From the human T2T-CHM13v2.0 reference genome, Homo sapiens: 64,000 nucleotides of DNA. The stretch's first letter is position 1; every line of letters begins with the position of its first letter. The DNA is taken from NCBI RefSeq assembly GCF_009914755.1, contig NC_060937.1; one strand, 5' to 3'. The position numbers and the translations under genes were made by a program. Under the pieces are notes generated by a model. That model saw only the letters and a program-made list of their open reading frames with translations. It did not search any database and had not been told where the DNA came from. Positions 11,010 through 33,470 of this stretch are shown here, in pieces.

Positions 11010-11200
11010 GGTTGAGAGCCAGTTTGGGGGTCAGAATACCTGGGGGCAGATCACAGCTCTGCCCTTGAAAACTCAGGCAATTTATTTAACTTCTCTATGC
11101 CTTGAACTTTTGATAAGTTTATTGTGAAGATTAAATTAACATTTATAAAACCTCTGGAAAAGCCCCTAATGTACAGCAATTGCGAAATACTAGCTATTAT
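11010..11200 (+). mobile_element. MIR SINE
   Basis: MIR core: cagctctgcc...ggcaatttatttaacttctctatgcct. Confidence 0.65.
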
Positions 11201-13927: not shown

Positions 13928-13963
13928 AAAGCAAAGCAAAGCAAAGCAAAGGAAAAGAAAAAA
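13928..13963. repeat. (GCAAA)n / A-rich simple repeat
   Basis: Read directly from the sequence. Confidence 0.85.
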
Positions 13964-15064: not shown

Positions 15065-15809
<745 letters not shown>

Positions 15810-16299
15810 GTCATTATATCATTTGTAAAACCAAATAAGAGCTACTAAACAGAAATTGCGAAGTTATTACACTTTCAATTTCCTTACTACTGTTAGAGAC
15901 TGTTAATCATTTAATTATATCAAAAATATTCTTTTCTTATCAAGACTATTCCATTATCTCTGGTTTCCTTCCTTATGTTGATGTACTTGAGATAATATGA
16001 GACAAATTACATTCTATAAAACAAAATAATCTTGATAAAATTAAACTTGAGTATATGAAGTAGCAGAGACACATAAAATCATTATATTCCCTCTAGTTTC
16101 AAAACTCTTAAAGTTGTCTACCCTCCTCCATTTTCAAACCCATTACCCTAGACTAAGCCAGCTCAAGGTGAAATGTATAAAATGTACTTAGAAAAGTTAT
16201 TTCCATAATACTTATAATAAAATCTAAACTATTTCCTATGGATTACAAAAGAACCCTACCTGTTTTTGGTTTTGTCTATTGCGGACTGCATTTCTGATC

Positions 16300-17375
16300 A
16301 TTTTTACCTCTCCTAGTATGTTCCAGCCACAGATGCCTTCCTTCTCCTCATCAAACACCCTACTTTTTCCAATCCAGAATCTTTGTACTAGCTCTTCTTT
16401 CCTCTTGAAATGTCCTTTACCCCTAATCTCTGCCACCCTCTTGTCCTCTTTCCAATCTCAGCTTCAAAATCATATTCTCAGAGGACATTTTGCCAATATC
16501 TCTCATCTAATGCTGCCATTTGCCAAATCATTCTCTATTATATAACTCTTTGTTATTTCTTACTATTATTTAACAGTCTCTAAAATTATAACAGTGTTGA
16601 TTTATTTCTTTGTTAAATTTTCCAGACCTCCCCACCCCCAAGATAAAAAAGGTTTCATCTGTCTTGTTCACTATTGTATTCCTCATTGCTAGTACAGTGC
16701 CTGGCATATATTTTTTAATTTTTAATTTTTGTGGGTACATTGTAGGTGTGTATATTTGTGGGGTACATGAGATGTTTTGGTACAGGCATGCAATGCATAA
16801 TAATCATACTGTGGAGAATGGGAGTATTCATCCCCAGAAGCATTTATCCTTTTTGTTACAAACAATCCAATTATACTTTCAGTTATTTTAAAATGTACAA
16901 AATATTGTTGACTAATAGTTACCATGTTGTGCTATCCAATACTAGGTATTATTAATTTTTTTCTAACTATATTTTTGTGCCCATTAATTATCCCACCTTC
17001 CCCCATGCCCTCAACACCTTTACCAGCCTCTGGTAACCAGCCTTCTACTCTCTAGCTCCATGACGTGCAACGGTTTTCATTTTTACATCCCATGAATAAG
17101 TGAGAATATGCAATGTTTGTCTTTCTGTGCCTGGCTTATTTCACTTAACATAATGACTTCCATTCCATCTATGTTGTTGCAAATGACAAGATCTCATTCA
17201 TTTGATCACTGAATCGTACTTTGTGTGTATATGTACAACATTTTTTTTATCCATTCATCTGCTGATAGACACATAGGTTGCTTCCAAATCTTGGCTATCA
17301 TGACCTGTGCTGCAACAAACATGGGAGTTCAGCTATCTCTTCAATATATACTCAGTAAATAGCTGTTGAATGAAT
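16300..17375 (+). mobile_element. L2 3' region split by an L1 insertion
   Basis: ...agtacagtgcctggcatata [L1] ctcagtaaatagctgttgaatgaat reconstitutes an L2 terminus. Left boundary approximate. Confidence 0.6.
16711..17347 (-). mobile_element. 5'-truncated L1MA/L1PB-type LINE-1 3' end
   Basis: ttttttaatttttaatttttgtgggtacat...gtctttctgtgcctggcttatttcacttaacataatg...ttccaaatcttggctat. Confidence 0.9.
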
Positions 17376-17562
17376 CATTTAACATAGTAAATAAAACTGG
17401 AATTCAGGTGAGGTTCAATAGAAACTGTACAAATAGTATATGAATTTTGAAAAATCAGATAAAGAACACTGAAAAGAAGGGAAATGAGGATTTCAGGTGC
17501 AGGATTGCAGTCTCTCAACTTTTTATGACAACGCATAAAGAGAATAATATAAAAGATCAATA

Positions 17563-18060
17563 TGTTGGGAGACAATTCTTTATAGGCTGTTTGCATTTTT
17601 GCAGTTCTTGTGGCAGCTTGTTTCTCCTAGACTATCTTTTCTAAGATATTTGCATAGGCATTGTCTTGAAAGATAAAGTGTCTCTATTTGGAACCAAGAG
17701 CAGATTTGTTTGCTCTTTAGGATAATACAGATAATGTTTCCCTCCAGGGAAAGGGCTGGGCAGGTTTGCTAGAAGTTCCCTTTATAAGAATGGACACCTC
17801 CTAACCTTGGAATTCCTCATCTGTGGCACAAATTTGTATATGCAACATCCACCTGGGCCTCACATTGACCCCATAGGCTTGCAGGGGAAGGAGAATGATG
17901 CAAACCTGAGCTCATGCTGCCTTCAGGGCCATAAGTAATAAAGTTCAGTATCTCTGACACAGGAATCTTGTATCTCCTGCCAGTATATATAAAACTGTGG
18001 CAGTCTAACCTGTTCAATTGCAAACAGAGTAAGTTTTCAGAATTTTCACAGTTCTTAACA
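17563..18060 (+). mobile_element. Old ERVL solo LTR (LTR40-like)
   Basis: Starts TGTTGGGAGACAATT, ends CAGTTCTTAACA, ~500 bp long, AATAAA at ~17937. Confidence 0.7.
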
Positions 18061-18139
18061 CAAGGATGCACTAAGCTGATGTCCCAAAAAAAAAAAAAAT
18101 TAAAAGTGACCATATAGTTATAAATCTAATGGAAGTTAC

Positions 18140-18569
18140 TGTCAGGCCTCTGAGCCCAAGCCAAGCCATCACATTCCCTGTGACTTGCACGTATACACCC
18201 AGATGGCCTGAAGTAACTGAAGAATCACAAAAGAAGTGAAAAGGCCCTGCCCCGCCTTAACTGATGACATTCCACCATTGTGATTTGTTCCTGCCCCACC
18301 TTAACTGAGTGATTAACCCTGTGAATTTCCTTCTCCTGGCTCAGAAGCTCCCACACTGAGCACCTTGTGACCCCCGCCCCTGCCCACCAGAGAACAACCC
18401 CCTTTGTAATTTTCCATTACCTTCCCAAATCCTATAAAACGACCCCACCCCTATCTCCCTTCACTGACTCTCTTTTTGGACTCAGCCCGCCTGCACCCAA
18501 GTGAAATAAACAGCCATGTTGCTCACACAAAGCCTGTTTGGTGGTCTCTTCACAAGGACACGCGTGAAA
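18140..18569 (+). promoter_or_regulatory. LTR7-family 5' LTR of provirus A
   Basis: TATAAAA at 18433-18439, AATAAA in R. U3 carries a ccaccattgtgatttgttcctgcccc block that provirus B lacks. Confidence 0.95.
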
Positions 18570-18571
18570 TT

Positions 18572-18589
18572 TGGTGACGTGACTTGGAT
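18572..18589 (+). other. Primer-binding site for tRNA-His (2 mismatches)
   Basis: tggtgacgtgacttggat vs TGGTGCCGTGACTCGGAT. Confidence 0.9.
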
Positions 18590-19288
18590 CGGGGGACCTC
18601 CCTTGGGAGATCAATCTCATGTCCTCCTGTTCTTTGCTCCATGAGAAATATCCACCTACGACCTCAGGTCTTCAGACTGACCAGCCCAAGAACCATCTCA
18701 CCAATTTCAAATCCGGTAGGCAGCCTCTTTTTACTCTTTTCTCCAACCTCCCTCCCTATTCCTCAACCTCTTTCTCCTTTCATTCTTGGTGCCACACTTC
18801 AATCTCTTCCTTCTCTTAATTTCAATTCCCTTCATTTTCTGGTAGAGACAAAGGAGACACATTTTATCCGTGGACCCAAAACTCCAGCACCGGTCACGGA
18901 CTGGGAAGGCAGCCTTCCCTTGGTGTTTAATCATTTCAGGGACGCCTCTCTGATTATTCACCCACGTTTCAAAGGTGTCAGACCACACAAGGAGGCCTGC
19001 CTTGGTCCTTCAGCCTTAGCGGCAAGTCCCGCTTTTCTGGGGGAGGGACAAGTACTCCAACCCCTTCTCTCTGTGTCTCTACCCCTTCTCTGATCTTCTG
19101 GGGCAGGGGCAAGAACCCCTCAACCCCTTCTCCTTCACCGTTAGCGGCAAGTCCCGCTTTTCTAGGGGGCAAGAACCCCCAATCCCTTATTTCCGTGCCC
19201 CAACCCTTTCTCTGCTTTTCTGGAGGGCAAGAAATCCCCACCCCTTCTCCGTGTCTCTACTCTTTTCTCTGGGCTTGCCTCCTTCACT

Positions 19289-20500
19289 ATGGGAAACCTT
19301 CCACCCTCCATTCCTCCTCCTTCTCCCTTAGCCTGTATTCTTAAGAACTTAAAACCTCTTCAACTCACACCTGACCTAAAATCTAAGCATCTTATTTTCT
19401 TCTGCAATGCTGCTTGACCCCAATACAAACTCGACAGTAGTTCCAAATAGCCAAAAAACGGCACTTTCAATGTTTCCATCCTACAAGATCTAAATAATTC
19501 TTGTCGTAAAATAGGCAAATGATCTGAGGTGCCTGACGTCCAGGCATTCTTTTACACATCAGTACCTTCCTAGTCTCTGTGCCCAGTGCAACTCGTCCCA
19601 AGTCTTCCTTCTTTCCCTCCCACCTGTCCCCTCAGTCCCAATCCCAAGCGTCGCTGAGTCTTTCTAATCTTCCTTTTCTACAGACCCATCTGACCTCTCG
19701 CCTCCTCGCCAGGCCAAGCTAGTTCCCAATTCTTCCTCAGCCTCCGCTCCTCCACCCTATAATCTTTTTATCGCCTCCCCTCCTCACACCTGGTCTGGCT
19801 TACAGTTTCGTTCTGTGACTAGCCCTCCACCACCTGCCCAGCAATTTACTCTTAAAAAGGTTGCTGGAGCCAAAGGCATAGTCAAGATTAATGCTCCTTT
19901 TTCTTTATCCCAAATCAGAAGTGTTTAGGCTCTTTTTCATCAAATATAAAAACCCAGCCCAGTTCATGGCTTGTTCGGCAGCAACCCTGAGACACTTTAC
20001 AGCCCTAGACCATAAGAGGTCGAAAGGCCATCTTATTCTCAATATACATTTTATTACCCAATCTGCTCCCCACATTAAACTCCAAAAATTGGAATCTGGC
20101 CCTCAAACCCCACAACAGGACTTAATTAACCTCACCTTCAAGGTGTACAATAATAAAAAAAAAGTTGCAATTCCTTGCCTCCACTGAGAGACAAACCCCA
20201 GCCACATCTCCAGCACACAAGAACTTCCAAACGCCTGAACCGCAGCAGCCAGGCATTCCTCCAGAACCTCCTCCCCCAGGAGCTTGCTACACATGCCGGA
20301 AATCTGGCCACTGGGCCAAGGAATGCCCACAGCCCGGGATTCCTCCTAAGCCACGTCCCATCTGTGTGGGACCCCGTTGAAAATCGGATTGTTCAACTCA
20401 CCTGGCAGCCACTCCCAAAGCCCCTGGAACTCTGGCCCAAGGCTCTCTGACTGACTCCTTCCCAGATCTTCTCCACTGAATGGCTGAAGACTGATGCTGC
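19289..20500 (+). pseudogene. gag: HERV-H gag remnant (provirus A)
   Basis: ATG GGA AAC CTT CCA CCC (MGNLPP) start. CX2CX4HX4C zinc knuckle [14 protein letters not shown] at 20285-20326. Multiple stops and frameshifts. Confidence 0.85.
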
Positions 20501-20559
20501 CCGATCGCCTTGGAAGCCCCATAGACCATCACGGACGCTGAGCTTAGGTAACTCTCACA

Positions 20560-20860
20560 GTGGAGGGTAAGTCCGTTCTCTTCTTAATCAATATGGAGGC
20601 TACCCACTCCACATTACCTTATTTTCAAGGGCCTGTTTCCCTTGCCTCCATAACTGTTGTGGGTATTGACGGCCAGGCTTCTAAACCTCTTAAAACTCCC
20701 CAACTCTGGTGCCAACTTAGACAATACTCTTTTAAGCACTCTTTTTTAGTTATCCCCACCTGCCCAGTTCCCTTATTAGGCCAAGATATTTTAACCAAAT
20801 TATCTGCTTCCCTGACTATTCCTGGACTACAGCTGCATCTCATTGCTGCCTTCTTCCCAA
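20560..20860 (+). pseudogene. pro: HERV-H protease remnant (provirus A)
   Basis: FLINMEATHS at the DTGA position, VVGIDG flap, PLLGQDIL motif. Confidence 0.85.
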
Positions 20861-20899
20861 TCCAAAGCCTCCTTTGCATCCTCCCTTTGTATCTCCCCA

Positions 20900-22660
20900 C
20901 CTTAACCCACAAGTATAAGATACCTCTACTCCCTCCTTGGTGACCGATCATGCACCCCTTACCATCTCATTAAAACCTAATCACCCTTACCCCACTCAAT
21001 GTCAAGATCCCATCTAACAGCACGCTTTAAAAGGATTAAAGCCTGTTATCACTCACCTGCTACAGCATGGCCTTTTAAAGCCTATAAACTCTCCTTACAA
21101 TTCCCCCATTTTACCTGTCCTAAAACCAGACAAGCCTTATAAGTTAGTTCAGGATCTATGCCTTATCAACCAAATTGTTTTGCCTATCCACCCAGTGGTG
21201 CCAAACCCATATACTCTCCTATCCTCAATACCTCCCTCCACAACCTGTTATTCTGTTCTAGATCTCAAACATGGTTTCTTTACTATTCCTTTGCACCCCT
21301 CATCCCAGCCTCTCTTCGCTTTCACTTGGACTGACCCTGACACCCATTAGGCTCAGCAAATTACCTGGGCTGTACTGCTGCAAAGCTTCACAGACAGCCC
21401 CCATTACTTCAGTCAAGCCCAAATTTCATCCTCATCTGTTACCTATCTCAGCATAATTCTCATAAAAACACACGTGCTCTCCCTGCTGATCGTGTCTGAT
21501 TAATCTCCCAAACCTCAATCCCTTACAAAACAACTCCTTTCCTTCCTAGGCATAGTTAGTGTGGTCAGAATTCTTACACAAGAGCCAGGACCACACCCTG
21601 TAGCCTTTCTTTCCAAACAACTTGACCTTACTGTTTTAGCCTAGCCCTCACGTCTGCGTGCAGTGGCTGCCACTGCTTTAATACTTTTAGAAGCCCTCAA
21701 AATCACAAACTATGCTCAACTCACTCTGTACAGTTCTCATAACTTCCAAAATCTATTTTCTTCCTCATACCTGACGCATATACTTTCTGCTGTACTCACT
21801 CTTTGTTAAGTCCCACAATTACCATTGTTCCTGGCCTGGACTTCAATCCAGCCTCCCACATTATTCCTGATACCACACCTGACACCCATGACTGTATCTC
21901 TCTGATCCACCTGATATTCACCCCATTTCCCCATATTTCCTTCTTTCCTGTTCCTCACCCTGATCACGCTTGATTTATTGATGGCATTTCCACCAGGCCT
22001 AATCGCCACACAACAGCAAAGGCAGGTTATGCTATAGTACGAGCCACTAGCCCACCTCTTAGAACCTTTCGTTTCCTTTCCATCGTAGAAATCTATCCTC
22101 AAGGAAATAACTTCTCAGTGTTCCATCTGCTATTCTACTACTCCTCATGGATTATTCTGGCCCCCTCCCTTCCCTACACATCAAGCTCGAGGATTTGCCC
22201 CCACCCAGGACTGGCAAATTAGCTTTACTCAACATGCCCCGAGTCAGGAAACTAAAATACCTCTTAGTCTAAATAGACACTTTCATTGAATAAGTAAAGG
22301 CCTTTCCTACAGGGTCTGAGAAGGCCACCTCAGTCATTTCTTCCCTTCTGTCAGACATAATTCCTCAGTTTAGCCTTCCCACCTCTATACAGTCTGATAA
22401 CAGACCAGCCTTTATTAGTCAAATCAGCCAAGCAGTTTTTCAGGCTGTTAGTATTCAGTGAAGCCTTTATATCCCTTATGGTCCTCCATCTTCAGGAAAA
22501 GTAGAATGGACTAAAGGTCTTTCAAAAACACACCTCACCAAGCTCAGCCACCAACTTAAAAAGGACTGGACAATACTTTTACCACTTTCCCTTCTCAGAA
22601 GTCAGACCTGTCCTCAGAATGCTACAGGGTACAGCCTATTTGAGCTCCTTTTTATTAGGC
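20900..22660 (+). pseudogene. pol: HERV-H pol remnant (RT/RNaseH/IN) with deletions (provirus A)
   Basis: SPYNSPILPV and LDLKHGFF RT motifs, QSDN integrase motif. I did not find YxDD. Many stops. Confidence 0.85.
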
Positions 22661-22899
22661 CCCAGTCTCATTCCAGACACCAGACCAACTTAGACTATGC
22701 CCCCCAAAAAAACTTGTCATCCCTACTATTTTCTGTCTATTCATACTCCTATTCTCCATTCTCAACTACTCATACATGCCCTGCTCTTGTTTACACTGCC
22801 GGTTTACACTGTTTCTCCAAGCCATCACAGCTGATATCTCCTGGTGCTATCCCCAAACTGCCACTCTTAACTCTTGAAGTAAATACATAATCTTTGCTG

Positions 22900-23125
22900 G
22901 CAGGACTATGCTGAATCTCCTTAGGCACTCTCTAATCAGATGTTCTAGGTCCTCCCAATTCTTAGACCTTTTATACCTGTTTTTCTCCTTCTCTTATTCC
23001 ATTTAGTTTTTCAATTCATACAAAACCATATCCAGGCCATCACCAATAATTCTAAATGACAAATGTTTCTTCTAACAACCCCACAATATCGCCCCTTACC
23101 ACAAAATCTTCCTTCAGCTTAATCT
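22900..23125 (+). pseudogene. env: HERV-H env TM C-terminal remnant (provirus A)
   Basis: Encodes an FIQNHIQAITNNS..QMFLLTTPQY-like tail. Most of env is deleted. Confidence 0.7.
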
Positions 23126-23284
23126 CTCCCACTCTAGGTTCCCACGCTGCCCCTAATCCCGCTTGAAGCAGCCCTGAGAAACATCGTCCATTCTCTCTCC
23201 ATACCATCCCCCAGAAATTTTCGGCGCCCCACCACTTCAACACTATTTTGTTTTATTTTTCTTATTAATATAAGAAGGCAGGAA

Positions 23285-23720
23285 TGTCAGGCCTCTGAGC
23301 CCAAGCCAAGCCATTGCATCCCCTGTGACTTGCACGTATATATGCCCAGATGGCCTGAAGTAACTGAAGAATCACAAAAGAAATGAAAAGGCCCTGCCCC
23401 GCCTTAACTGATGACATTCCACCATTGTGATTTGTTCCTGCCCCACCTTAACTGAGTGATTAACCCTGTGAATTTCCTTCTCCTGGCTCAGAAGCTCCCA
23501 CACTGAGCACCTTGTGACCCCCGCCCCTGCCCACCAGAGAACAACCCCCTTTGACTGTAGTTTTCCATTACCTTCCCAAATCCTATAAAATGGCCTCACC
23601 CCTATCTCCCTTCACTGACTCTCTTTTTGGACTCAGCCCGCCTGCACCCAGGTGAAATAAACAGCCATGTTGCTCACACAAAGCCTGTTTGGTGGTCTCT
23701 TCACACGGACGTGCATGAAA
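23285..23720 (+). promoter_or_regulatory. LTR7-family 3' LTR of provirus A (poly(A) signal AATAAA 23656-23661)
   Basis: Preceded by PPT aagaaggcaggaa (23272-23284). About 15 substitutions and 2 indels vs the 5' LTR, counted by eye. Confidence 0.95.
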
Positions 23721-24683
23721 ATTACCATTAGTAATGCCACTGATTGAATGGTTTTTAAAACATAACCCTGGGTTACACATTCCCTGTGTACTAAATCCAG
23801 TCAGCGACAATGACCCCTGCTTCTCCTATGGTCTGCTCTAATCTGAGTTTCAAAGCTCTATTGATCTTCACATTCATACTAGAATTCTTTCTTAGCAGGC
23901 CAGAGCTCGAACTAGGATCCTTTCTTCCCCAGATTCTCCCACCAACTCTACCTTTTACAATTTTCTTTTAAAAATCCAAAAAAGAATTGATATGAGTTAA
24001 ATGTGTCAAATTTAGTAAAACTTTAAGCACTATGTCCAGAGCATTGCACACACACACACATATATATATGGCTTGTTAAATTTAAAATGAAGCATGTAAA
24101 GTTTTTTAAAGTAAAAACAGAATTTGGAAAGAATGAAAATTCTGCAATTATTAAGTTTTCTGAAGAAAATATTTGAAATCTGCTGGTGTTTGCTCAAGAA
24201 ACATTTGTTAAATATCTACAAATTATATACCTATGTCACACCATGCATTTGCTCTGCATAGAAATCTGCAGATTACCTAATTCTTAAACTGTTCTTGCTG
24301 TCATGTAAATAGTTATTTACAGCCTTTCTAAGCTGAGTAGTGTTCTAGGTACTGGCCACTGGGCAATGCACAAAACAAATGCAAATGTCTGCTCTCCAGC
24401 AGTTTAAATTCTAGTGAAGTGATGGAATATAGAGCAGGGGAAAGGACAGTAAGGGTCCCAGATAATAAACAAATACATGAAAAACATGTAGTTTGCAAGA
24501 GGATGATAAGTGGTAGGGAACATTGGAAAGATAGATGCAATTTTATAATGAATAGTCAGGAAAGTGTCAATGAGTTTCACTGTCTAATGAATGAAACAGA
24601 ATTTTTTTTTTTTTTCGAAACAGACTTCTAAAAGAATAAGTGCAATAAGTTTTCAAAAGTGCAGGATGACATCCCAGTTACCT

Positions 24684-25509
24684 TGTATTAGCTTGCTAGG
24701 GCTGTGATGTAGTTTGGGTATTTGTCCCTGCCCAAATCTCATGTTGAATTGTAATCTCCCGTGCTGGAGATGGAGCTTAGTGGGAAGTGTTTGGATCATG
24801 GAGGCGGATCCCTCATGGCTTGGTGCTGTCTTCCTTATAGTGAGTTCTCATGAGATGTGGTAATTTAAGAGTGTGTGGCACCTTTCCCTTCACTCTCTCC
24901 CCTTCTTCTGCTTTCCACATGTGATGTGCCTGTTCCCCCTTTGCCTTCTGCCATGAATGAAAGCTCTCTGAGGCTTCGTCAGAAGCTGAGCAGATGCTAG
25001 CACCATGCTTCCTGTAAAGCCTGCAGAACGTGAGCCAATTAAACCTCTTTTCTTCATAAATTATGCACTCCCAGGTATTTCTTTACAGCAATGCAAAAGC
25101 GACCTAACACAGGCTTCCATAACAAAATATCACAGATGGGATGACTTAAACATCAGGAGTTTCTTTTCTTACAATTTTGGAAGCTGGAAGTCCAAGATCA
25201 AGGTACTGGCAGGGTTGATTTCTTCTAAGGCCACTGTCTTTGGCTTGCCTATGGCTGCCTTCTCTTCGTGTGCTCACATGGTCTTTCCTTTGCGCTAATG
25301 CATCTCTGGTATCTTTCTGTGTATTTAACTTTATTAATCTGATAAGGGCTGGTCAGATTACACTAGGCCCATACTAAAGGCCTCCTTTTCACTTAACTGT
25401 CTCTTTAAAGGCCCTGTTTCCAAATATAGTCACAGTCCAAGGTACTAGAGGTAAGAACTTCAACATGCGACTTATGGGCCGGGTTGTGGGGAGAGCACAG
25501 TCCATAACA
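24684..25509 (-). mobile_element. MLT1A/B-like solo LTR split by an MST LTR
   Basis: tgtattagcttgctagggctg [MST] ...ccataacaaaatatcacagatggg...cacagtccataaca. Confidence 0.8.
24705..25111 (+). mobile_element. MSTA/MSTB solo LTR
   Basis: TGATGTAGTTTGG...cccaaatctcatgttgaattgtaat...CTAACACA. TSD ggctg (24700-24704) / ggctt (25112-25116). Confidence 0.9.
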
Positions 25510-26629
25510 TCTCTCTTAAAATTTGAGAGAGATAGCTGGGAATTAAAACCCTGATTTTATCTTCTTGCAGCCCTATTCTCTGAAGCATAGTGAATTATGT
25601 ATCATAATTCCATGCTGTATGCTAAATTGCAGATAATATCTGGTTTTCAGAACTGTTTATTGTGAAGCCCTGAAGTTGCAGCTGCCCCAGGAGGAATGTG
25701 GCTTGACATATATTCCCAGAGAGGTTTGCTAACAAACATAATTCATGCTTGGTTAAGGGAAGGAGAGGTAGTTTCCCTCCCAGTCCCTGACCAACAGAGC
25801 ACACCCAGTGCATGGAGTGGTCTGACAGCTGGCCTGATAGTCCAAGACCTCTCAATAGGACTGTTTGGCTATGAATGACAGTGCTGCCCGCTTTCAGCCT
25901 TTCAAATCAAATTATGATGACTGATGGGACCCCATTAAGTCTTGTGGGTCTTTTTGTTGACTCTGATTTCCAAAACAATTAATATTAAATTAGAGGCCAG
26001 GTAGAATGTGAAGCGGGAAGAGCAAGTCGTAACAAAGAGTTTCAACAAACTCTTTTTGCATGCATTTCATATATGTTCAGCAGGCACAAAACTATCGTCT
26101 TTTCAAAGATGACAGAGGCAGTGACATTAACGAAGCGTGAAAGTTTTAAACTACAACGAGCAGATTGGGAACTGCAAGGGTTTTAGTGTAGATAAAACAT
26201 AGTCAGGGGCACAAATCAAGAGATTAAGGAGGAAAATAGGTGTTGAGACCATTGAAGGTTCTTTCAGGCTTACTAAGAATTTGTTTCCTATTTGGTAGTC
26301 ATAGAATGTCAATTTAACTGAAATGCTTTACACTAAAGAATTTGATGATTAAATGCGTGTTTTTAAAAATGAATTCCATTGGCCAAATGACAGATGACTT
26401 TAAGTGCTTACTTCTTTACTGCCCAGAGATCTTTCAAGATCCCATTAAACCAAAGTACTAAAACTCAAAATATTTGTTTCATTGTGCCCTTTAGAAATGT
26501 GAACTTACAAAAGATTCAGTGCAGAAAACAAGAAAATAAACATGAAACATTAGTTCAAATGAGGTGTGCTTATCACATCAGGGCACTGGGTCTTAAACCT
26601 TGGTGTGCCTCCAATCTAGGGTAAATGAA

Positions 26630-27120
26630 GAGAGAGATTTTTCCATGGGTGTATCTGGAGATGTACGCATGTTAAAGCATAACAAAATTTGGGATTAATC
26701 AATTGTTCATCAGTGGGAGAATGGATAAATATTTGTGAAATGTTCATACACTTGAATCAGAGGTATAGAAATGTACAGAGAAGAGCTAAAAACACAGCGT
26801 GGAATAAAAAATTAAGTTGCAAGAATAAGTTGCTCTGTATTGACTGACAGCATTTATATAACTTTGTAAAAACATAATGAAACACATTACTTATAGAAAC
26901 AGAATTTCAGTACAAACATGGTCTAATGGAACACTCATCAAATTCATCACATTGGTTCACTCAGAGTGGGAAGGTAGGGAAATGAACTTTAAGATAGGAA
27001 AAAAAGGGATTCTATTTTATTTCTAAACTATTGCAAAAATGACAAATATAAATATAGTTAATCCTAGGTCATGAGTATGCACTTCTGTAAATCTCTGTAC
27101 TTTTCTAAAATTGTTTTCAC
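26630..27120 (+). mobile_element. Old L1 (L1ME-like) 3' fragment
   Basis: tgttcatcagtgggagaatggataaat...tgttcatacac resembles old L1 3' region. Boundaries approximate. Confidence 0.5.
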
Positions 27121-27146
27121 TTTTTCAAATCATCTTTTAAAGAGAC

Positions 27147-27599
27147 TTTCATGCTCGTGCATGTGAAGAGACCACCAAACAGGCTTTGTGTGAGCAACAT
27201 GGCTGTTTATTTCACCTGGGTGCAGGCAGGCTGAGTCCAAAAAGAGAGTCAGCGAAGGGAGATAGGGGTGGGGCTGTTTTATAGGATTTGGGTAGGTAAA
27301 GGAAAATTACAGTCAAAGGGGGTTTGTTCTTTGGCGGGCAGGAGTGGGGGTCCCAAGGTGCTCAGTGGGGGTGTTTTTTGAGCCAGGATGAGCCAGGAAA
27401 AGGACTTTCACAAGGTAATGTCATCACTTAAGGCAAGGACCGGCCATTTACACTTCTTTTGTGGTGGAATGTCATCAGTTAAGGTGGGGCAGGGCATATT
27501 CACTTCTTTTGTGATTCTTCAGTTACTTCAGGCCATCTGGGCTTATATGTGCAAGTCACAGGGGATGCAATGGCTTGGCTTGGGCTCAGAGGCCTGACA
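27147..27599 (-). promoter_or_regulatory. LTR7 3' LTR of provirus B (poly(A) signal 27206-27211)
   Basis: PPT immediately upstream on the minus strand. Two ACAAAAGAAGTG copies in U3. Confidence 0.95.
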
Positions 27600-28219
27600 T
27601 TCCTGCCTTCTTATATTAATAAGAAAAATAAAACAAAATAGTGTTGAAGTGTTGGGGCAGTGAAAATTTTTGGGGGGTGATATGGAGAGAGAATGGGTGA
27701 TGTTTCTCAGGGCTGCTTCAAGCGGGATTAGGGGCAGCGTGGGAACCTAGAGTGGGAGAGATTAAGCTGAAGGGAGGTCTTGTGGTAAGGGGTGATATTG
27801 TGGGGTTGTTAGAAGAAACATTTGTTGTGTAGAATTATTGGTTATGGCCTGGATATGGTTTTGGATGAATTGAGAAACTAAATGGAATAACAGAAGGAGA
27901 AAAACAGGTATAAAAGTTCTAAGAATTGGGACAACTCAGGATATCTGATTAGAGAGTGCCTAAGGAGATTCAGCATAGTCCTGCCAGCAAAGATTATGTA
28001 TTTACTTCAAGAGTTAAGAGTGGCAGTTTGGGGATAGCACGAGGAGATATCAGCTGTGATGGCTTGGAGAAACTGTAAACCGGCAGTGTAAACAAGAGCA
28101 GGGCATGTATGAGTAGTTGAGAACGGTGAATAGGAGTATGACTAGACAGAAGATAATAGGGATGACAAGTTTTTTGGGGCACAGTCTAAGTTGGTCTGGT
28201 GTCTGGAATGAGACTGGGG

Positions 28220-30010
28220 CCTAATAAAAAGGAGCGTCTATACAGGAGCTCAAATGGGCAGTACCCTGTAGCATTCCGAGGACAGGCCTGAATTCTGAGA
28301 AGGGAAAGTGGTTAAAGTATTGTCCAGTCCTTTTTAAGTTGGTGGCTGAGCTTGGTGAGGTGTGTTTTTAAAAGATCTTTAGTCCATTCTACTTTTCTTG
28401 AAGATGGAGGACCGTAAGGGATATAAAGGTTTCACTGAATACTAACAGCCTGAAAAACTGCTTGGCTGATTTGACTAATAAAGGCTGGTCTGTTATAAGA
28501 GTGTGTTGAGGTGGGAAGGCTAAACTGAGGAATTATGTCTGACAGAAAGGAAGAAATGACTGAGGTGGCCTTCTCAGACCCTGTGGGAAAGGCCTCTACC
28601 TATCCAGTGAAATTATCTACCTAGACTAAGAGGTATTTTAGTTATCTGACTCAGGACATGTTGAGTAAAGCTAATTTGCCAGTCCTGGGTGGGGGCAAAT
28701 CCTCGAGCTTGATGTGTAGGGAAGGGAGGGGGCCTGAATAATCCTTGAGTAGTAGTAGAATAGCAGATGGAACACTGAGAAGTTATTTCCTTGAGGATAG
28801 ATTTCCACGATGGAAAGGAAATGAGAGGTTCTAAGAGGTGGGCTAGTGGCTTGTACTATAGCATAACCTGCCTTTGCTGGTGTGTGGCGATTAGGCCTGG
28901 TGGAACCGCCATCAATAAATCAAGTGTGATCAGAGTGAGGAACACGAAAGAAGGAAATTTGGGGAAATGGGGTGAATGTCAGGTGGATCGGAGAGATACA
29001 GTCCTGGGTGTCAGGTGTGGTATCAGGAATAATGTGGGAGGCTGGATTGAAGTCTGGGCCAGGAACAATGGAATTGAGGGAGACTCAACAAAGAGTGAGT
29101 ACAGCTGAAGGAGCCGGGGAGCAGAAAGTATATGCATCAGGTATGAGGAAGAAAATAGATTTTGGAAGTTATGAGAACTGTAGAGAGTGAGTTGAGCATA
29201 GTTTGTGATTTTGAGGGCCTCTAAAAGTATTAATGCAGCGGCAGCCACTGCACGCAGACATGAGGGCTAGGCTAAAACAGTAGGTCAAGTTGTTTGGACA
29301 GAAAGGCTACAGGGTGTGGTCCTGGCTCTTGTGTAAGAATTCTGACCGCACTAACCATGCCTAGGAAGGAAAGGAGTTGTTGTTTTGTAGAAGGTGCTGG
29401 GGTTTGAGAGATTAGTCGGACACGATCAGCAGGGAGAGCACGTGTGTTTTTATGAGAATTATGCCGAGATAGGTAACAGATGAGGAAGAAATTTGGGCTT
29501 GATTGAAGTAATGGGGGCTGTCTGTGAAGCTTTGCAGCAGTACAGCCTAGGTATTTTGCTGAGCTTGATGGGTGTCAGGGTCAGTCTAAGTGAAAGTGAA
29601 GAGAGGCTGGGATTAAGGGTGCAAAGGAATAGTAAAGAAAGCATGTTTGAGATCCAGAACAGAATAATGGGTTATAGAGGCAGGTATTGAGGATAGGAGA
29701 ATATATGGGTTTGGCACCACTGGGTGGATAGGCAAAACAATTTGGTTAATAAGGCGCAGATCCTCAACTAACTTGTAAGGCTTGTCTGGTTTTAGGACAG
29801 GTAAAATGGGGGAATTGTAAGGAGAGTTTATAGGCTTTAAAAGGCCGTGCTGTAGCAGGCGAGTGATAACAGGCTTTAATCTTTTTAAAGCGTGCTGCGG
29901 GATGGGATATTGGGGTTGAGTGGCGTAAGGGTGATTAGGTTTTAATGAGATGATAAGGGGTGCATGATCAGTCACCAAGGAGGGAGTAGAGGTATTTTAT
30001 ACTTGCGGGT
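28220..30010 (-). pseudogene. pol: HERV-H pol remnant (provirus B)
   Basis: ORF 29613-29978: QYPI...NSPYNSPILPVLKPDKPYKLVEDLRLINQ...VLDLKHAFFTIPL. Disrupted downstream. Confidence 0.9.
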
Positions 30011-30079
30011 TAAGTTTGGGGGATACAAGAGGAGGATGCAAAGGAGGCTTTGGATTGGGAAGAAGGGCAGCAATGAGAT

Positions 30080-30356
30080 GCAGCTGTAGTCCAGGAATAG
30101 TCAGGGAAGCAGACAATTTAGTTAAAGTGTCTCAGCCTAATAAGGGAACTGGGCAGGTGGGGATAACTAAAAAGGAGTGCTTAAAAGAGTATTGTCTAAG
30201 TTGGCCCCAGAGTTGGGGAGTTTTAAGAGGTTTAGAAGCCTGGCCATCAATACCGACAACAGCTGTGGAGGCAAGGGAAAAAGGCCCTTGAAAAGAAGGT
30301 AATGTGGAGTGGGTAGCCTCCGTATTGATTAAGAAGGGGACGGGCTTACCTTCCAC
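30080..30356 (-). pseudogene. pro: HERV-H protease remnant (provirus B)
   Basis: FLINTEATHS at the DTGA position. Stop codon after PLLG. Confidence 0.85.
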
Positions 30357-30399
30357 TGTGAGAGTTACCTGAAGCTGGGCATCCGTGATGGTCTAGGGG

Positions 30400-31625
30400 G
30401 CTTCCGAGGCAATCAGGCAGCGTCAGTCTTCAGCCGCTAAGCCAAGAAGATCTGGGAAGCAGTCAGAGAGCCTTGGGCCAGAGTTCCAGGGGCTCTGGGA
30501 GTGGCTGCCAGGTGAGTTGGACAGTCCGATTTCCAGTGGGGTCCGGCACAGATGGGACGTGGCTTAGGAGGAATCCTGGGCTGCAGGCATTCCTTGGCCT
30601 GGTGGCCACGTTTCTGGCACTTGTAGCAAGCTCCTGGGGGAGGAGGTTCTGGAGGAACACCTGGCCGCTGCGGTTCAGGCGTTTGGAAGTTCTTGTGTGC
30701 TGGAGATGCGGCTGGGGTTTGTCTCACAGTGGGGACAAGGAATTGCAACTTTTTTCTATTATTGTACACCTTGAAGGCGAGGTTAGTTAAATCCTGTTGT
30801 GGGGTTTGAGGGCCGGAATTTAATTTTTGGAGTTTTATTTAATGTGGGGAGCAGATTGGATAATAAAATGTATATTGAGAATAAGACAGCCTTTTGACCT
30901 TTTAGGGTCTAGGGCTGTAAAGTGTCTCAGGGTTGCTGCCAAACGATCCATGAACTGGGCTGGATTTTTATATTTGATGAAAAAGAGCCTAAACGGTTCT
31001 GATTTGGGATAAAGAAAAAGGAGCATTAACCTTGACTATGCCTTTGGCTCCAGCCACCTTTTTAAGAGTAAATTGCTGGGCAGGTGGGGGAGGGCTAGTC
31101 ACAGAACGAAACTGTAAGCCCGACCAGGTGTGAGGAGGGGAGGCGATAAAAAGATTATAGGGTGGAGGAGCGGAGGCTGAGGAAGAATTGGGACCTAGCT
31201 CGGGCTGGCGAGGAGGGGAGAGGTCAGATAGGTCTGTAGAAAAGGAAGATTAGAAAGACTCAGCGACGCTTGGGATTGGGACTGAGGGGACAGGTGGGAG
31301 GGAAAGAAGATTTGGGATGAGTTGCACTGGGCACAGAGACTAGGAAGGGACTGATGTGTAAAAGAATGCCTGGACGTCAGGCACCTCAGATCATTTGCCT
31401 ATTTTATGACAAGAATTATTTAGATCTTGCAGGATGGAGAAATTCAAAGTTCCATTTTCTGGCTATTTGGAACTACTGTTGAGTTTGTATTGGGGTCAAG
31501 CGGCATTGCAGAAGAAAATAAGGCATTTAGGTTTTAGGTCAGGTGTGAGTTGAAGAGGTTTTAAGTTTTTGAGAACACAGGCCAAGGGAGTAGAAGGAGG
31601 AATGGAGGGTGGAAGTTTGCCTATA
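30400..31625 (-). pseudogene. gag: HERV-H gag remnant (provirus B)
   Basis: Zinc knuckle CYKCQKRGHQAKEC at 30587-30628. The start codon position reads ATA where provirus A has ATG. Confidence 0.85.
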
Positions 31626-31719
31626 GTGGAGGAAGCAAGCCTCGAGAAAAGAGAGAGTAGAGAAACGGAGGGAAGGGGTTCAGGGATTCTTACCTTTCAG
31701 AAAAGTGAGAAAAGGGGTT

Positions 31720-31865
31720 GGGGTGCAGATATAAGAGTTCGGGGCACGGAAATAAGGGATGGGGTGCAGAAATAAGGGGTCGGGGCACGGAAATAAGGGG
31801 TCGGGGCATGGAAATAAAGGATTGGGGCATGGAGATACTAGGTTGGGGTGCGGAAATAAGGTATT
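31720..31865. repeat. Minisatellite of 7 x ~21 bp (GGGGYRYRGAAATAAGGGRTY-like) in the HERV-H leader
   Basis: Units start at 31720, 31741, 31761, 31782, 31803, 31824 and 31845. Confidence 0.9.
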
Positions 31866-32252
31866 GGACATTCTTGCCCCCTAGAAAAGCGGGACTTGCC
31901 GCTAAGGGTGAAAGAGAAGGGGTTGAGGGGTACTTGCCCCTCCCTCAGAAAAGCGGGACTTGCCGCTAAAGGTGAAGGACCAAGGCAGGCGTCCCTGCGT
32001 GGTCTGACACCCGTGAAACGTGGGTGTATAATCAGAGAGGTGTCCCTGCAATGATTAAACACCAAGGGAAGGCTGCCTTCCCAGTCCGTGACCGGCACCG
32101 GAGTTTTGGGTCCACGGATAAAACGTGTCTCCTTTGTCTCTCCCAGAAAATGAAAGGAATTGAAATTAAGAGAAGGGAGAGATTGAAGAGTGGAAAGGAG
32201 AAAGTGGTTGAGGGACAGTGAGAGAGGCTGGAGAAGAGAGTAAGAAGAGGCC

Positions 32253-32261
32253 GCTTACCTG
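32253..32261 (-). promoter_or_regulatory. HERV-H major splice donor CAG|GTAAGC (provirus B)
   Basis: Plus strand reads gcttacctg, ~130 nt downstream of the PBS. The equivalent site in provirus A is CCG|GTAGGC (~18714-18722). Confidence 0.75.
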
Positions 32262-32384
32262 ATTTAAAATTGATGAGATGTTCCTTGGGCTGGTCAGTCT
32301 GAGGACCTGAGGCCATAGGTGGATCTTTCTCACGGAGCAAAGAACAGGAGTACAGGGGATTGATCTCCCAAGGGAGGTCCCCAG

Positions 32385-32402
32385 ATCCAAGTCACGGCAT
32401 CA
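32385..32402 (-). other. Primer-binding site for tRNA-His (2 mismatches)
   Basis: Minus strand tgatgccgtgacttggat. Confidence 0.9.
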
Positions 32403-32404
32403 AA

Positions 32405-32854
32405 TTTCATGTGCGTCGGCGTGAAGAGACCACCAAACAGGCTTTGTGTGAGCAACATGGCTGTTTATTTCACCTGGGTGCAGGCGGGCTGAGTCCAAAG
32501 AGAGAGTCAGCGAAGGGAGATAAGGGTGGCACTGTTTTATAGGTTTTGGGAAGGTAAAGGAAAATTACAGTCAAAGGGGTTTTGTTCTCTGGCGGGCAGG
32601 AGTGGGGGTCGCAAGGTGCTCAGTGGGGGTGCTTTCTGAGCCAGGATGAGCCAGGAAAAGGACTTTCACAAGGTAATGTCGTCACTTAAGGCAAGGACCG
32701 GCTATTTACACTTTTGTGGTGGAATGTCATCAGTTAAGGTGGGGCAGGGCATATTCACTTCTTTTGTGATTCTTCAGTTACTTCAGGCCATCTGGGCGTA
32801 TACGTGCAAGTCACAGGGGATGTGATGGCTTGGCTTGGGCTCAGAGGCCTGACA
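32405..32854 (-). promoter_or_regulatory. LTR7 5' LTR of provirus B (candidate pluripotency promoter/enhancer)
   Basis: TATAAAA on the minus strand at ~32535-32541. U3 has the duplicated CACAAAAG block. 11 CpGs. Confidence 0.95.
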
Positions 32855-33269
32855 GAGACTTTTTTCCTCACCTGTAATCCCTTATAATTATATTATACTT
32901 TATACTTTGCCTGCACTTAATATATTTATTGCCTCATAACCTGCTTATGATTTAGATGGGAAAAAGTAAAGGTCTTTATTCTTAACTGAGTCTCAAAAAG
33001 GTGAAGTGCCTTACCCCAACATTTCCTTATAATTATTAAAAAATGAGATGGAAGTTCAGTCCCAGCATTTCTGACACTCAGGCAAGTGGTTCTCATTCTC
33101 CTGCAAGGGCTCTGTCTGCACTGTGAGAACTTCTACGGAACTCACCAGAATTGGCAAAAAACACTTAAATTTCAATGTGGCCCTTCTCTTTTCCCATCTC
33201 TACAATTTATTTTGTTCTAAATATAGTTGAGGGCCTGGGGCTCATGAATTTAGGTGATGTTTTATGATG

Positions 33270-33470
33270 CAGTAGATGAGGGTGAAAGCTGTGATTGGTA
33301 ATGCCAGCTCTGCCACATTCTAGCATCCTGGACATTGACAAGCTACTTATATATGCTCTGCCTCAGTTTTCTTGTAGATAAGATTACAAAATAATAGTAC
33401 TTTGGCATAAGATTATTGAGAATGAACTAGGTAATCCATAAAGTGCTTAGCATAGGTCCTATTAGAACTA
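33270..33470 (+). mobile_element. MIR SINE
   Basis: ccagctctgccac...ctctgcctcagttttctt...ataatagtac. Confidence 0.65.

What the first reader, a model, noticed from the sequence alone, without database searches (positions are those of the whole stretch)
18140..32854. Potential multi-kilobase fold-back dsRNA from read-through of either 3' LTR
Seen: the only obvious terminator of each provirus is one AATAAA in its 3' LTR (23656-23661; 27206-27211). Both 3' LTRs also keep TATA boxes facing into the spacer. Inference: a transcript that reads through one 3' LTR, crosses the spacer and enters the opposite provirus antisense could fold into a hairpin with arms up to ~5.5 kb, far longer than inverted Alu pairs. 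It would be a candidate ADAR hyper-editing, MDA5/PKR or Dicer substrate and a source of HERV-H antisense RNA able to act in trans on the family. Normally terminated transcripts of A and B are the same viral sense and would not pair, so read-through is essential.
Basis: inference. Interest (0 to 1): 0.7.

Follow-up and report, generated by a model that had tools for sequence, protein, structure and literature searches.

The report
Tail-to-tail pair of HERV-H proviruses
Two separately inserted copies of the ancient human retrovirus HERV-H face each other 3.4 kb apart on chromosome 13, so they could form a long double-stranded RNA if transcription ran from one into the other, but nothing yet shows that it does.

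Summary
The structure is real. Provirus A (18140-23720, +) and provirus B (27147-32854, -) lie 3' end to 3' end across a 3,426-nt non-repeated spacer. Their arms are 92.1% identical over 5,489 aligned positions.

Each provirus has its own 5-bp target-site duplication, so they are two independent insertions, not an inverted duplication. Published tables name them HERVH_13q31.3a (LTR7u2) and 13q31.3b (LTR7up1).

Pairing of the arms is strongly favoured energetically. In a folded 4.3-kb read-through segment, 397 of 436 nt of A's 3' LTR pair with B's 3' LTR.

The essential step, read-through, is untested and faces obstacles:
- Both 3' LTR poly(A) sites are intact.
- Further poly(A) hexamers (AATAAA or ATTAAA) lie in the spacer and in each antisense arm, including one just inside each opposite provirus.

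Published evidence is mixed:
- B is not highly transcribed in H1 stem cells.
- Both loci are among 17 tumour-specific HERVs in colorectal cancer.
- A second, independent LTR7u2/LTR7up1 convergent pair at 1q41 is in the same list. This fits read-through, shared local activation or chance.

Verdict: a real, already catalogued locus with latent dsRNA potential. The likeliest product is a short LTR:LTR stem, not a 5.5-kb one.

The parts
18135..18139 (+). 5' target-site duplication of provirus A (GTTAC)
   Evidence: Read from the sequence. It matches ATTAC at 23721-23725 in 4 of 5 positions.
18140..18569 (+). Provirus A 5' LTR (430 nt, LTR7u2 type): TATAAAA at 18433, AATAAA at 18505
   Evidence: K2P distance to the 3' LTR is 0.034. 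The subfamily comes from Carter et al. 2022 supplementary file 2.
18572..18589 (+). Primer-binding site of A (TGGTGACGTGACTTGGAT)
   Evidence: Sequence read. That it matches the 3' end of tRNA-His is recalled, not tested.
18570..23284 (+). Provirus A internal region, with degraded gag-pro-pol and no long ORF
   Evidence: Pfam hits in gene order: Gag_p30 (19882-20184, E 0.0027, below cut-off), RVP (20548-20940, E 2e-8) and RVT_1 (21018-21347, E 7.3e-5, below cut-off). The longest stop-to-stop frame is 171 aa.
23285..23720 (+). Provirus A 3' LTR (436 nt): TATAAAA at 23584, AATAAA at 23656-23661, then a GU-rich downstream element
23721..23725 (+). 3' target-site duplication of A (ATTAC)
23721..27146 (.). 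Spacer, 3,426 nt, 38% GC, with no repeat shared with the proviruses. Poly(A) hexamers on +: AATAAA at 24464, 26535, 26803 and five ATTAAA. On -: AATAAA at 27021, 25661, 25335.
27142..27146 (-). 3' target-site duplication of provirus B (GTCTC)
   Evidence: It is identical to 32855-32859.
27147..27599 (-). Provirus B 3' LTR (453 nt, LTR7up1 type): TATAAAA at 27283, AATAAA at 27211-27206. It keeps the second AAAAGAAG copy (LTR position 140).
   Evidence: Carter et al. describe the 8-bp AAAAGAAG insertion as a SOX2/3 site needed for LTR7up promoter activity.
27600..32404 (-). Provirus B internal region, including the primer-binding site at 32402-32385. It is degraded.
   Evidence: zf-CCHC hit on the - strand at 30440-30838 (E 1.2e-6). 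Collinear with A.
32405..32854 (-). Provirus B 5' LTR (450 nt). It has a 3-nt deletion inside the second AAAAGAAG copy relative to the 3' LTR.
   Evidence: K2P distance between B's two LTRs is 0.056.
32855..32859 (-). 5' target-site duplication of B (GTCTC)
27627..27632 (+). AATAAA on the antisense strand of B, 28 nt inside the 3' LTR boundary, with a GU/U-rich downstream stretch. It is the predicted end point for + strand read-through.
   Evidence: U fraction 0.33, two TGT, two T4 runs in the 40-nt downstream stretch scanned.
23252..23257 (-). Homologous AATAAA on the antisense strand of A, 28 nt inside its 3' LTR boundary

Best explanation
Identity and origin: these are two independently integrated, evolutionarily young, deleted-form HERV-H proviruses. 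They are HERVH_13q31.3a (LTR7u2, + strand) and HERVH_13q31.3b (LTR7up1, - strand). They happen to lie 3' end to 3' end, 3.4 kb apart, in a gene desert. Each is an autonomous LTR-driven non-coding transcription unit with its own intact poly(A) site.

dsRNA potential: the pair is a genuine 5.5-kb, 92%-identical inverted repeat, so it has a latent capacity to form dsRNA. That capacity is used only if RNA polymerase passes a 3' LTR poly(A) site or starts at a 3' LTR.

Most likely behaviour (inferred, not shown):
- Such transcripts are a small fraction of output.
- Most would end at spacer poly(A) sites, or at the AATAAA just inside the opposite provirus.
- The realistic fold-back product is therefore an LTR:LTR stem of about 0.44 kb (88% identical) with a 3.4-kb loop.
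- It would arise mainly where the loci are derepressed, namely colorectal tumours and perhaps the pluripotent epiblast.
- A 5.5-kb hairpin would be rare at best.

Why the inverted arrangement exists (inferred): it is most simply a by-product of clustered integration, plus the fact that inverted neighbours cannot collapse into one copy by recombination.
For: Independent insertion:
- A is flanked by GTTAC/ATTAC and B by GTCTC/GTCTC.
- The LTR subtypes differ: A and B LTRs are 87-88% identical to each other, against 95-97% within each provirus.
- No inverted repeat extends into the spacer.
- In the genome search with A 21800-22700, 39 other copies elsewhere in the genome scored 93-96% identity. 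B, 94% identical there, was not among the 40 of 1,124 candidates that were scored.

Identity:
- Carter et al. 2022 supplementary file 2 lists hg38 chr13:90839564-90845143 (+, LTR7u2, full) and 90848574-90854277 (C, LTR7up1, full).
- Order, strands, lengths and gap (3,430 vs 3,426 nt) match the window, at a constant offset of about 797,425 bases.
- Retroviral Pfam domains occur in gag-pro-pol order.

Pairing capacity:
- 94.8% of ungapped columns pair once G:U is allowed, with 3 helices of 100 bp or more and 26-29 of 50 bp or more.
- All 7 of the 7 examined 400-column windows (every other window of the 14 full windows) gain -246 to -591 kcal/mol on duplex formation, against -31 to -73 with a shuffled partner.
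- In the MFE fold of + RNA 23285-27599, 397 of 436 nt of A's 3' LTR pair with B's 3' LTR.

Obstacles to read-through:
- Both 3' LTRs have an intact hexamer plus a GU-rich element.
- Further AATAAA/ATTAAA hexamers lie along both read-through paths.
- B is scored RNA 0, top-septile GRO-seq 0 and chimeric transcript 0 in H1 cells. The GRO-seq window reaches 8 kb from B's 5' LTR, about 2.3 kb into the spacer.
Against: - Both loci are among 17 tumour-associated HERV loci in metastatic colorectal cancer.
- The only two LTR7up1 loci among the 15 HERV-H entries in that table are 13q31.3b and 1q41g. Each is the convergent downstream neighbour of a listed LTR7u2 locus.
- If the counting was unstranded (my assumption; strandedness is not stated in the passages I read), this is what read-through from the LTR7u2 copy would produce. 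Read-through could therefore be more than a trace.
- B has active chromatin marks in H1 cells (NANOG, KLF4, H3K4me3, H3K27ac; no KAP1 or H3K9me3).
- Hexamer counts are not measured poly(A) site strengths.
- Poly(A) sites very close to a cap are generally poorly used (established knowledge for retroviral 5' LTRs). An RNA starting in a 3' LTR could therefore escape its own site.
Confidence: 0.72

Rival explanations
1. In cells where A or B is active, a substantial share of transcripts reads through the 3' LTR, crosses the spacer and copies the other provirus antisense. This gives a multi-kilobase intramolecular hairpin that is edited by ADAR or sensed by MDA5/PKR.
For: - Pairing is strongly favoured thermodynamically.
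- Both loci are detected together in colorectal cancer.
- Both 7up1 entries of that list are convergent partners of listed 7u2 loci, here and at 1q41.
- A peptide that the paper assigns to 13q31.3a (CFSGLLQAGLGAAWEPRVGEIK) is encoded only on the antisense strand of both A (from 23183, -) and B (from 27701, +).
Against: - The 3' LTR poly(A) sites are intact, and there are 3 AATAAA in the spacer on each strand (plus 5 ATTAAA on +) and 5-6 AATAAA in each antisense arm.
- The authors state that the 17 loci were 'not generally coexpressed', with only another pair reaching r = 0.51. That argues against B's signal being mainly A's read-through.
- B is not highly transcribed in H1 cells.
- The stem would be mismatched about every 13 bp. 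[quoted passage not shown]
- MDA5-bound RNA after 5-aza treatment was reported to be inverted Alus, not ERVs (review).
- The peptide evidence is from a six-frame search and is shared by several loci.
Confidence: 0.12
2. Intermolecular, perfectly matched dsRNA. Antisense RNA over one provirus, from partner read-through or from the partner's or its own 3' LTR promoter facing the spacer, pairs with that provirus's own sense transcript. This is the arrangement of a convergent natural antisense pair.
For: - Both 3' LTRs keep TATAAAA 72 nt upstream of the hexamer.
- B's 3' LTR keeps the complete second AAAAGAAG copy, while its 5' LTR has a 3-nt deletion in it. Carter et al. report that the 8-bp element is needed for LTR7up promoter activity.
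- RefSeq 'enhancer' features given by the hub cover A's 3' LTR, B's 3' LTR and B's 5' LTR, but not A's 5' LTR.
- Reviews describe bidirectional ERV transcription as the accepted route to ERV dsRNA.
Against: - There is no transcript evidence for either 3' LTR acting as a promoter.
- The source experiments of the RefSeq features are not given.
- The same poly(A) hexamers stand in the way.
- Both strands would have to be made in the same cell.
Confidence: 0.1
3. The pair is a palindromic (inverted) segmental duplication of one provirus, or has been homogenised by gene conversion between the arms.
For: Overall arm identity of 92% and near-equal lengths.
Against: - The target-site duplications differ and the LTR subfamilies differ.
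- Nothing in the spacer or flanks is inverted-repeated.
- The longest perfect run is only 103 bp.
- At least 39 unlinked copies are as similar to A as B is.
Confidence: 0.01

Closest known systems
LTR7-HERVH proviruses, specifically the catalogued loci HERVH_13q31.3a (LTR7Y/LTR7u2) and HERVH_13q31.3b (LTR7/LTR7up1)
   Same: Coordinates, strands, lengths and subfamilies match Carter et al. 2022 supplementary files 1-2 and Table 2 of the 2025 eBioMedicine colorectal cancer study.
   Different: In the passages and tables I read, neither source comments on the inverted arrangement, the spacer or the strand of the reads.
Inverted-repeat Alu pairs in one transcript, the main ADAR1 substrates and MDA5 ligands
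   Same: Two copies of one retroelement family in opposite orientation could form an imperfect intramolecular stem if co-transcribed.
   Different: - The arms are about 18 times longer (5.5 kb vs about 0.3 kb) and the loop is 3.4 kb.
- The pair is intergenic, with no annotated host transcript.
- Each arm ends in its own poly(A) site, so co-transcription needs read-through.
[quoted passage not shown] This 14.7-kb structure would be seen only in part.
Bidirectional ERV transcription in 'viral mimicry', and convergent natural antisense pairs
   Same: dsRNA arises from sense plus antisense transcription of an ERV. Here the antisense source would be the facing provirus.
   Different: No antisense RNA has been shown here. 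Later work attributes most MDA5-bound RNA after demethylation to inverted Alus rather than ERVs (review).
The 1q41 pair HERVH_1q41f (LTR7u2, +) and HERVH_1q41g (LTR7up1, -)
   Same: - Same subfamilies and same convergent order.
- Arms are 92.2% identical.
- Each provirus has its own perfect 5-bp duplication (CTTAT; ATAGG).
- Both members are in the same 17-locus tumour list.
   Different: - The spacer is 1,443 nt instead of 3,426 nt.
- Flanks and spacer share no homology with chr13, so it is an independent occurrence.

Membership tests
HERV-H provirus (LTR7 family LTRs plus HERVH internal region) | Two LTRs in direct orientation flanking an internal region, bounded by a short target-site duplication | tested here: met
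   - LTR pairs appear.
- The LTR pair is 96.7% identical in A and 94.7% in B.
- 5-bp duplications flank both: 4 of 5 match for A, 5 of 5 for B.
HERV-H provirus (LTR7 family LTRs plus HERVH internal region) | Retroviral gag-pro-pol remnants in the sense orientation | tested here: met
   - 4 of 19 ORF translations hit Pfam.
- RVP and zf-CCHC score above the curated cut-off; Gag_p30 and RVT_1 score below it.
- In A the three hits (Gag_p30, RVP, RVT_1) lie in gene order on the sense strand; B's single hit (zf-CCHC) lies on its sense strand.
HERV-H provirus (LTR7 family LTRs plus HERVH internal region) | Primer-binding site complementary to tRNA-His | not tested
   An 18-nt candidate sits 2 nt after each 5' LTR. 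Its match to tRNA-His is recalled, not computed.
HERV-H provirus (LTR7 family LTRs plus HERVH internal region) | Membership of the genomic family (many close copies) | tested here: met
   - A 24-nt motif from A occurs 917 times in the assembly with up to 2 mismatches, against 0 for the reversed control.
- 39 other copies are 93-96% identical over 901 nt.
- Published annotation agrees.
LTR7up (pluripotency-active subfamily), for provirus B | 8-bp AAAAGAAG insertion (SOX2/3 site) in block 2b | tested here: inconclusive
   - A second AAAAGAAG is present in the 3' LTR at position 140.
- It is interrupted by a 3-nt deletion in the 5' LTR.
- The subfamily call LTR7up1 is taken from Carter et al., not re-derived here.
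Intramolecular inverted-repeat dsRNA source (as for inverted Alu pairs) | Two inverted copies with enough complementarity to pair | tested here: met
Intramolecular inverted-repeat dsRNA source (as for inverted Alu pairs) | Both arms present in one RNA molecule | not testable with these tools
   - No RNA data are available.
- The hub table annotates no transcript across the spacer.
- Published calls for B in H1 cells are negative for high RNA, top GRO-seq and chimeric transcripts.
Intramolecular inverted-repeat dsRNA source (as for inverted Alu pairs) | A-to-I editing clusters or dsRNA-binding evidence on both arms | not testable with these tools
   No editing or J2/MDA5 data are held. No paper found reports any for this locus.
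Inverted segmental duplication (palindrome) | Shared flanks or target sites and symmetry extending beyond the elements | tested here: not met
   The target-site duplications and LTR subtypes differ, and the inverted repeats stop at the LTR edges.

The most novel reading that the evidence does not exclude
Convergent LTR7u2/LTR7up1 HERV-H pairs (13q31.3a/b here, 1q41f/g on chromosome 1) behave as read-through units in colorectal cancer.
- The tumour-active LTR7u2 provirus is transcribed past its 3' LTR into the facing LTR7up1 provirus.
- This produces antisense HERV-H RNA and a hairpin far longer than any inverted Alu pair.
- It would explain why the only two pluripotency-type (7up1) loci in the published tumour list are exactly these partners.
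- It would also explain why a reported tumour peptide maps to the HERV-H antisense strand.
Probability: 0.2. Interest if true: 0.65.

Novelty: new member of a known kind. Interest (0 to 1): 0.4.

Why it matters
How endogenous retroviruses would form the dsRNA invoked in 'viral mimicry' is still argued. MDA5-bound RNA has been traced mostly to inverted Alus.

A provirus pair that makes kilobase-scale dsRNA from a single tumour-specific locus would be a concrete ERV source that can be deleted experimentally. It would also be a source of antisense HERV-H RNA able to pair with hundreds of family members.

If read-through does not occur, the locus is simply two neighbouring proviruses. The tumour signal at the 7up1 copy would then reflect shared chromatin activation. 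That still matters for anyone using 13q31.3a/b as separate biomarkers.

Tried and rejected
The plain motif search lists only 100 of its 917 hits, so no census was possible.
  - In its place I did my own arithmetic under uniform placement, using counts (62 full LTR7u2, 175 full LTR7up1, about 735 full-length in all).
  - About 0.6 pairs of any full-length copies are expected within 3.5 kb, and about 0.15 convergent ones.
  - About 0.006 convergent 7u2/7up1 pairs are expected, against 2 seen. This contrast is post hoc and ignores regional clustering of ERVs.
- Inverted duplication and arm-to-arm gene conversion were rejected.
- The supplements of the eBioMedicine paper held here (one file, 13,085 characters) had no entry for the locus. 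I could not see the per-sample counts (their Tables S6/S7) that would give the a/b correlation.
- Searches for LINC00410 gave nothing on this locus.
- Searches for HERV-H with dsRNA, inverted repeats or ADAR1 returned reviews and general studies. None that I opened describes this pair as an inverted repeat. Most of them I saw only as listings and abstracts.
- The Dicer/siRNA idea I consider unlikely in somatic human cells. Two abstracts state that mammalian RNAi is constrained by Dicer's poor processing of long dsRNA (listing only).
- Folding the whole 14.7-kb RNA was not attempted because of run time. A 4.3-kb inner segment was folded instead.


Full report
**Observation.**
- The repeat search over 17000-34000 found four direct LTR families (18192-18572 with 23339-23723; 27147-27599 with 32405-32854). 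It also found 18 inverted pairs, 89-97% complementary, that run collinearly from 18133 to 32861.
- A global alignment of A (18140-23723) with the reverse complement of B (27147-32854) gave 5,056 matches, 433 mismatches (289 transitions, 144 transversions) and 29 gap runs.
  - Identity is 92.1% over ungapped columns and 87.1% counting gaps.
  - The largest indels are 126 nt and 61 nt.
  - The longest perfect run is 103 bp; 47 runs reach 30 bp and 16 reach 50 bp.
- The claim that these are the only terminators does not hold. Each provirus has three sense-strand AATAAA (5' LTR, one internal, 3' LTR) plus 3-4 ATTAAA.

**Anatomy and identity.**
- Both elements start TGTCAGG and end in GAAA.
- Two nucleotides after each 5' LTR lies an 18-nt primer-binding site. 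Its likeness to tRNA-His is recalled, not tested.
- A is flanked by GTTAC/ATTAC and B by GTCTC/GTCTC.
- Of 19 ORF translations scanned against Pfam, 4 had hits: Gag_p30, RVP and RVT_1 in that order on A's sense strand, and zf-CCHC on B's sense strand. RVP and zf-CCHC score above the curated cut-off; the other two are below it.
- No stop-to-stop frame in either provirus exceeds 171 aa.
- Carter et al. 2022 (PMC8912925; I read passages and supplementary files 1 and 2) list two matching entries:
  - hg38 chr13:90839564-90845143, +, full, LTR7u2.
  - hg38 chr13:90848574-90854277, complement, full, LTR7up1.
- Against the hub's CHM13 coordinates these sit at a constant offset of about 797,425 bases. 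Order, strands, lengths and gap (3,430 vs 3,426 nt) are the same. I take them to be A and B. This is inferred from geometry, not from an alignment to hg38.

**Origin.**
- The different target-site duplications show two separate integrations, not an inverted duplication. So do the different LTR subtypes: A and B LTRs are 87-88% identical to each other, against 96.7% and 94.7% within A and B. The inverted repeat also stops exactly at the LTR edges.
- A is no closer to B than to unlinked copies. Searching the assembly with A 21800-22700 gave 1,124 first-look candidates, of which 40 were scored. The 39 that were not the query itself were 93-96% identical and lie elsewhere. B, 94% identical there, was not among them.
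- LTR-LTR K2P distances are 0.034 for A and 0.056 for B, with standard errors of about 0.01. This fits the paper's statement that 7up1/2, 7u2 and 7y are the youngest wave. The difference between A and B is not significant.

**Pairing capacity.**
- Allowing G:U, 94.8% (+ strand RNA) or 94.7% (- strand RNA) of ungapped columns pair. There are 3 uninterrupted helices of 100 bp or more, 26-29 of 50 bp or more and 54-60 of 30 bp or more. The median helix is 11 bp.
- In all 7 of 7 examined 400-column windows (every other window of the 14 full windows), duplex formation gains -246 to -591 kcal/mol over self-folding, against -31 to -73 with a shuffled partner.
- In the minimum-free-energy fold of the + strand RNA 23285-27599, 397 of the 436 nt of A's 3' LTR pair with B's 3' LTR across the 3.4-kb loop, and none pairs elsewhere.
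- These are equilibrium calculations. They say nothing about co-transcriptional folding, bound proteins or whether the RNA exists.

**Obstacles to read-through.**
- Both 3' LTRs carry AATAAA followed by the same CA-rich and GU-rich stretch, which is the anatomy of an efficient poly(A) site.
- Beyond it, a + strand RNA meets 3 AATAAA and 5 ATTAAA in the spacer, then 6 AATAAA and 1 ATTAAA in B antisense.
- A - strand RNA meets 3 AATAAA in the spacer, then 5 AATAAA and 2 ATTAAA in A antisense.
- One of these lies at a homologous position 28 nt inside each opposite provirus (27627 + and 23257 -). The one at 27627 has a GU/U-rich downstream context.
- I therefore predict that most RNA getting that far would end there. 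That limits the fold-back to the LTR arms, about 0.44 kb at 88% identity. This is inference: hexamers are not measured sites.

**Published expression evidence.**
- In Carter's supplementary file 1, B is scored as follows in H1 hESC:
  - RNA 0, top-septile GRO-seq 0, chimeric transcript 0.
  - KAP1 0, H3K9me3 0.
  - NANOG 1, KLF4 1, FOXA1 1, FOXP1 1, TCF4 1, ZNF534 1, H3K4me3 1, H3K27ac 1.
- 'RNA' means fpkm above 2. The GRO-seq window ran from 10 bp upstream to 8 kb downstream of the 5' LTR, so about 2.3 kb into the spacer.
- A is not in that file.
- According to the text, 7up is expressed in epiblast and primed ESC, and 7u2 in the pluripotent epiblast with a preference for naive lines. The two promoter types could therefore be active together in the epiblast.
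- B's 5' LTR has a 3-nt deletion inside the second AAAAGAAG copy, while its 3' LTR keeps it. The paper reports that deleting this 8-bp SOX2/3 element reduces LTR7up promoter activity. This may relate to B's low expression in H1, but I did not test it.
- In the 2025 eBioMedicine study of colorectal liver metastases (PMC12145686; I read the summary, section 30 with Table 2, and methods passages), both loci are among 17 selected tumour-associated HERV loci:
  - 13q31.3a: 90,839,564-90,845,144, LTR7Y/LTR7u2, qRT-PCR validated, 'never expressed' in GTEx.
  - 13q31.3b: 90,848,573-90,854,278, LTR7/LTR7up1, 'never expressed' in GTEx.
- Libraries were poly(A) RNA-seq counted with Telescope. Strandedness is not mentioned in the main text ('stranded' occurs 0 times).
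- The authors state that the 17 loci were 'not generally coexpressed', with only another pair at r = 0.51.

**A second pair.**
- The same table lists 1q41f (LTR7Y/LTR7u2) and 1q41g (LTR7/LTR7up1).
- Carter's file gives chr1:221965924-221971632 (+, LTR7u2, full) and 221973079-221978956 (complement, LTR7up1, full).
- I fetched the matching CHM13 stretch and found:
  - two proviruses of 5,709 and 5,880 nt, convergent;
  - a spacer of 1,443 nt;
  - arms 92.2% identical;
  - each provirus with its own perfect duplication, CTTAT and ATAGG.
- BLAST against window 16000-35000 matched only proviral sequence, not flanks or spacer. This is an independent occurrence of the same architecture.
- Of the 15 HERV-H loci in Table 2, 2 are labelled 7up1, and both are the convergent neighbours of a listed 7u2 locus.
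- Three readings fit:
  - read-through from the 7u2 copy, counted as its neighbour's expression;
  - shared local activation;
  - chance.
- The rarity estimate is given under Tried and rejected. It is post hoc.

**Mechanism and rivals.**
- My best reading (confidence 0.72): this is an ordinary pair of autonomous proviral transcription units with a latent, conditional capacity for dsRNA. Any fold-back is probably limited to the LTRs.
- Full multi-kilobase hairpins (0.12) and perfect intermolecular duplexes from convergent or 3'-LTR-initiated transcription (0.10) remain open. An inverted duplication is excluded.
However, read-through is not the only route, and any antisense RNA would also match its partner's sense RNA perfectly.

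**Comparison with what is known.**
- Reviews describe two routes to retroelement dsRNA: bidirectional transcription for ERVs and intramolecular hairpins for inverted Alus. They also report that MDA5-bound RNA after 5-aza treatment was inverted Alus rather than ERVs (PMC7615088, passages).
[quoted passage not shown] This 14.7-kb structure would be captured only in part.
- The loci themselves are catalogued. In the papers I opened I found no description of their inverted arrangement.
- I therefore rate this as a new member of a known kind, of moderate interest. The interest rises if the two-pair pattern in tumours proves to be read-through.

**Limits.**
- No RNA, editing or chromatin data could be examined directly.
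- The eBioMedicine per-sample tables were not held, and bioRxiv supplements are closed.
- The source experiments behind the RefSeq 'enhancer' features at 23031-23600, 26829-27579, 27580-28329 and 32258-32998 are unknown to me. These features overlap A's 3' LTR, B's 3' LTR, B's 3' internal end and B's 5' LTR.

Noticed in passing
L011+L012 (CHM13 chr1:221203001-221223000), proviruses at local 3086-8794 (+) and 10239-16117 (-): A second, independent convergent LTR7u2(+)/LTR7up1(-) HERV-H pair at 1q41. Its spacer is 1,443 nt, its arms are 92.2% identical and each provirus has its own 5-bp duplication. Both members, like both chr13 members, are in the same published list of 17 colorectal-cancer HERV loci.
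   Followed up: partly
window 23183 (- strand) and 27701 (+ strand): The peptide CFSGLLQAGLGAAWEPRVGEIK, which the colorectal cancer study assigns to 13q31.3a and three other HERV-H loci, is encoded on the antisense strand of both proviruses, just inside their 3' LTRs. NTRALPADR is encoded on the sense strand of both (21467 +, 29448 -).
   Followed up: partly
window 32405-32854 versus 27147-27599: B's 5' LTR has a 3-nt deletion within the second AAAAGAAG copy, the reported SOX2/3 element of LTR7up, which its 3' LTR retains. The promoter facing the spacer may therefore be the more intact one.
   Followed up: partly
window 23031-23600, 26829-27579, 27580-28329, 32258-32998: The RefSeq 'enhancer' features listed by the hub fall on A's 3' LTR, B's 3' LTR and adjacent internal region, and B's 5' LTR. 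None falls on A's 5' LTR, although that LTR is 96.7% identical to A's 3' LTR.
   Followed up: no
window 18086-18099: A run of about 14 A's lies some 40 nt upstream of A's 5' end, and the window as a whole is rich in AATAAA (192 matches against 112 expected). This fits an AT-rich, gene-poor setting.
   Followed up: no
window 18140-32854: A 5.5-kb inverted repeat around a 3.4-kb spacer could in principle mediate inversion of the spacer by recombination. With 92% identity and a longest perfect run of 103 bp this seems unlikely, and it was not examined across assemblies.
   Followed up: no
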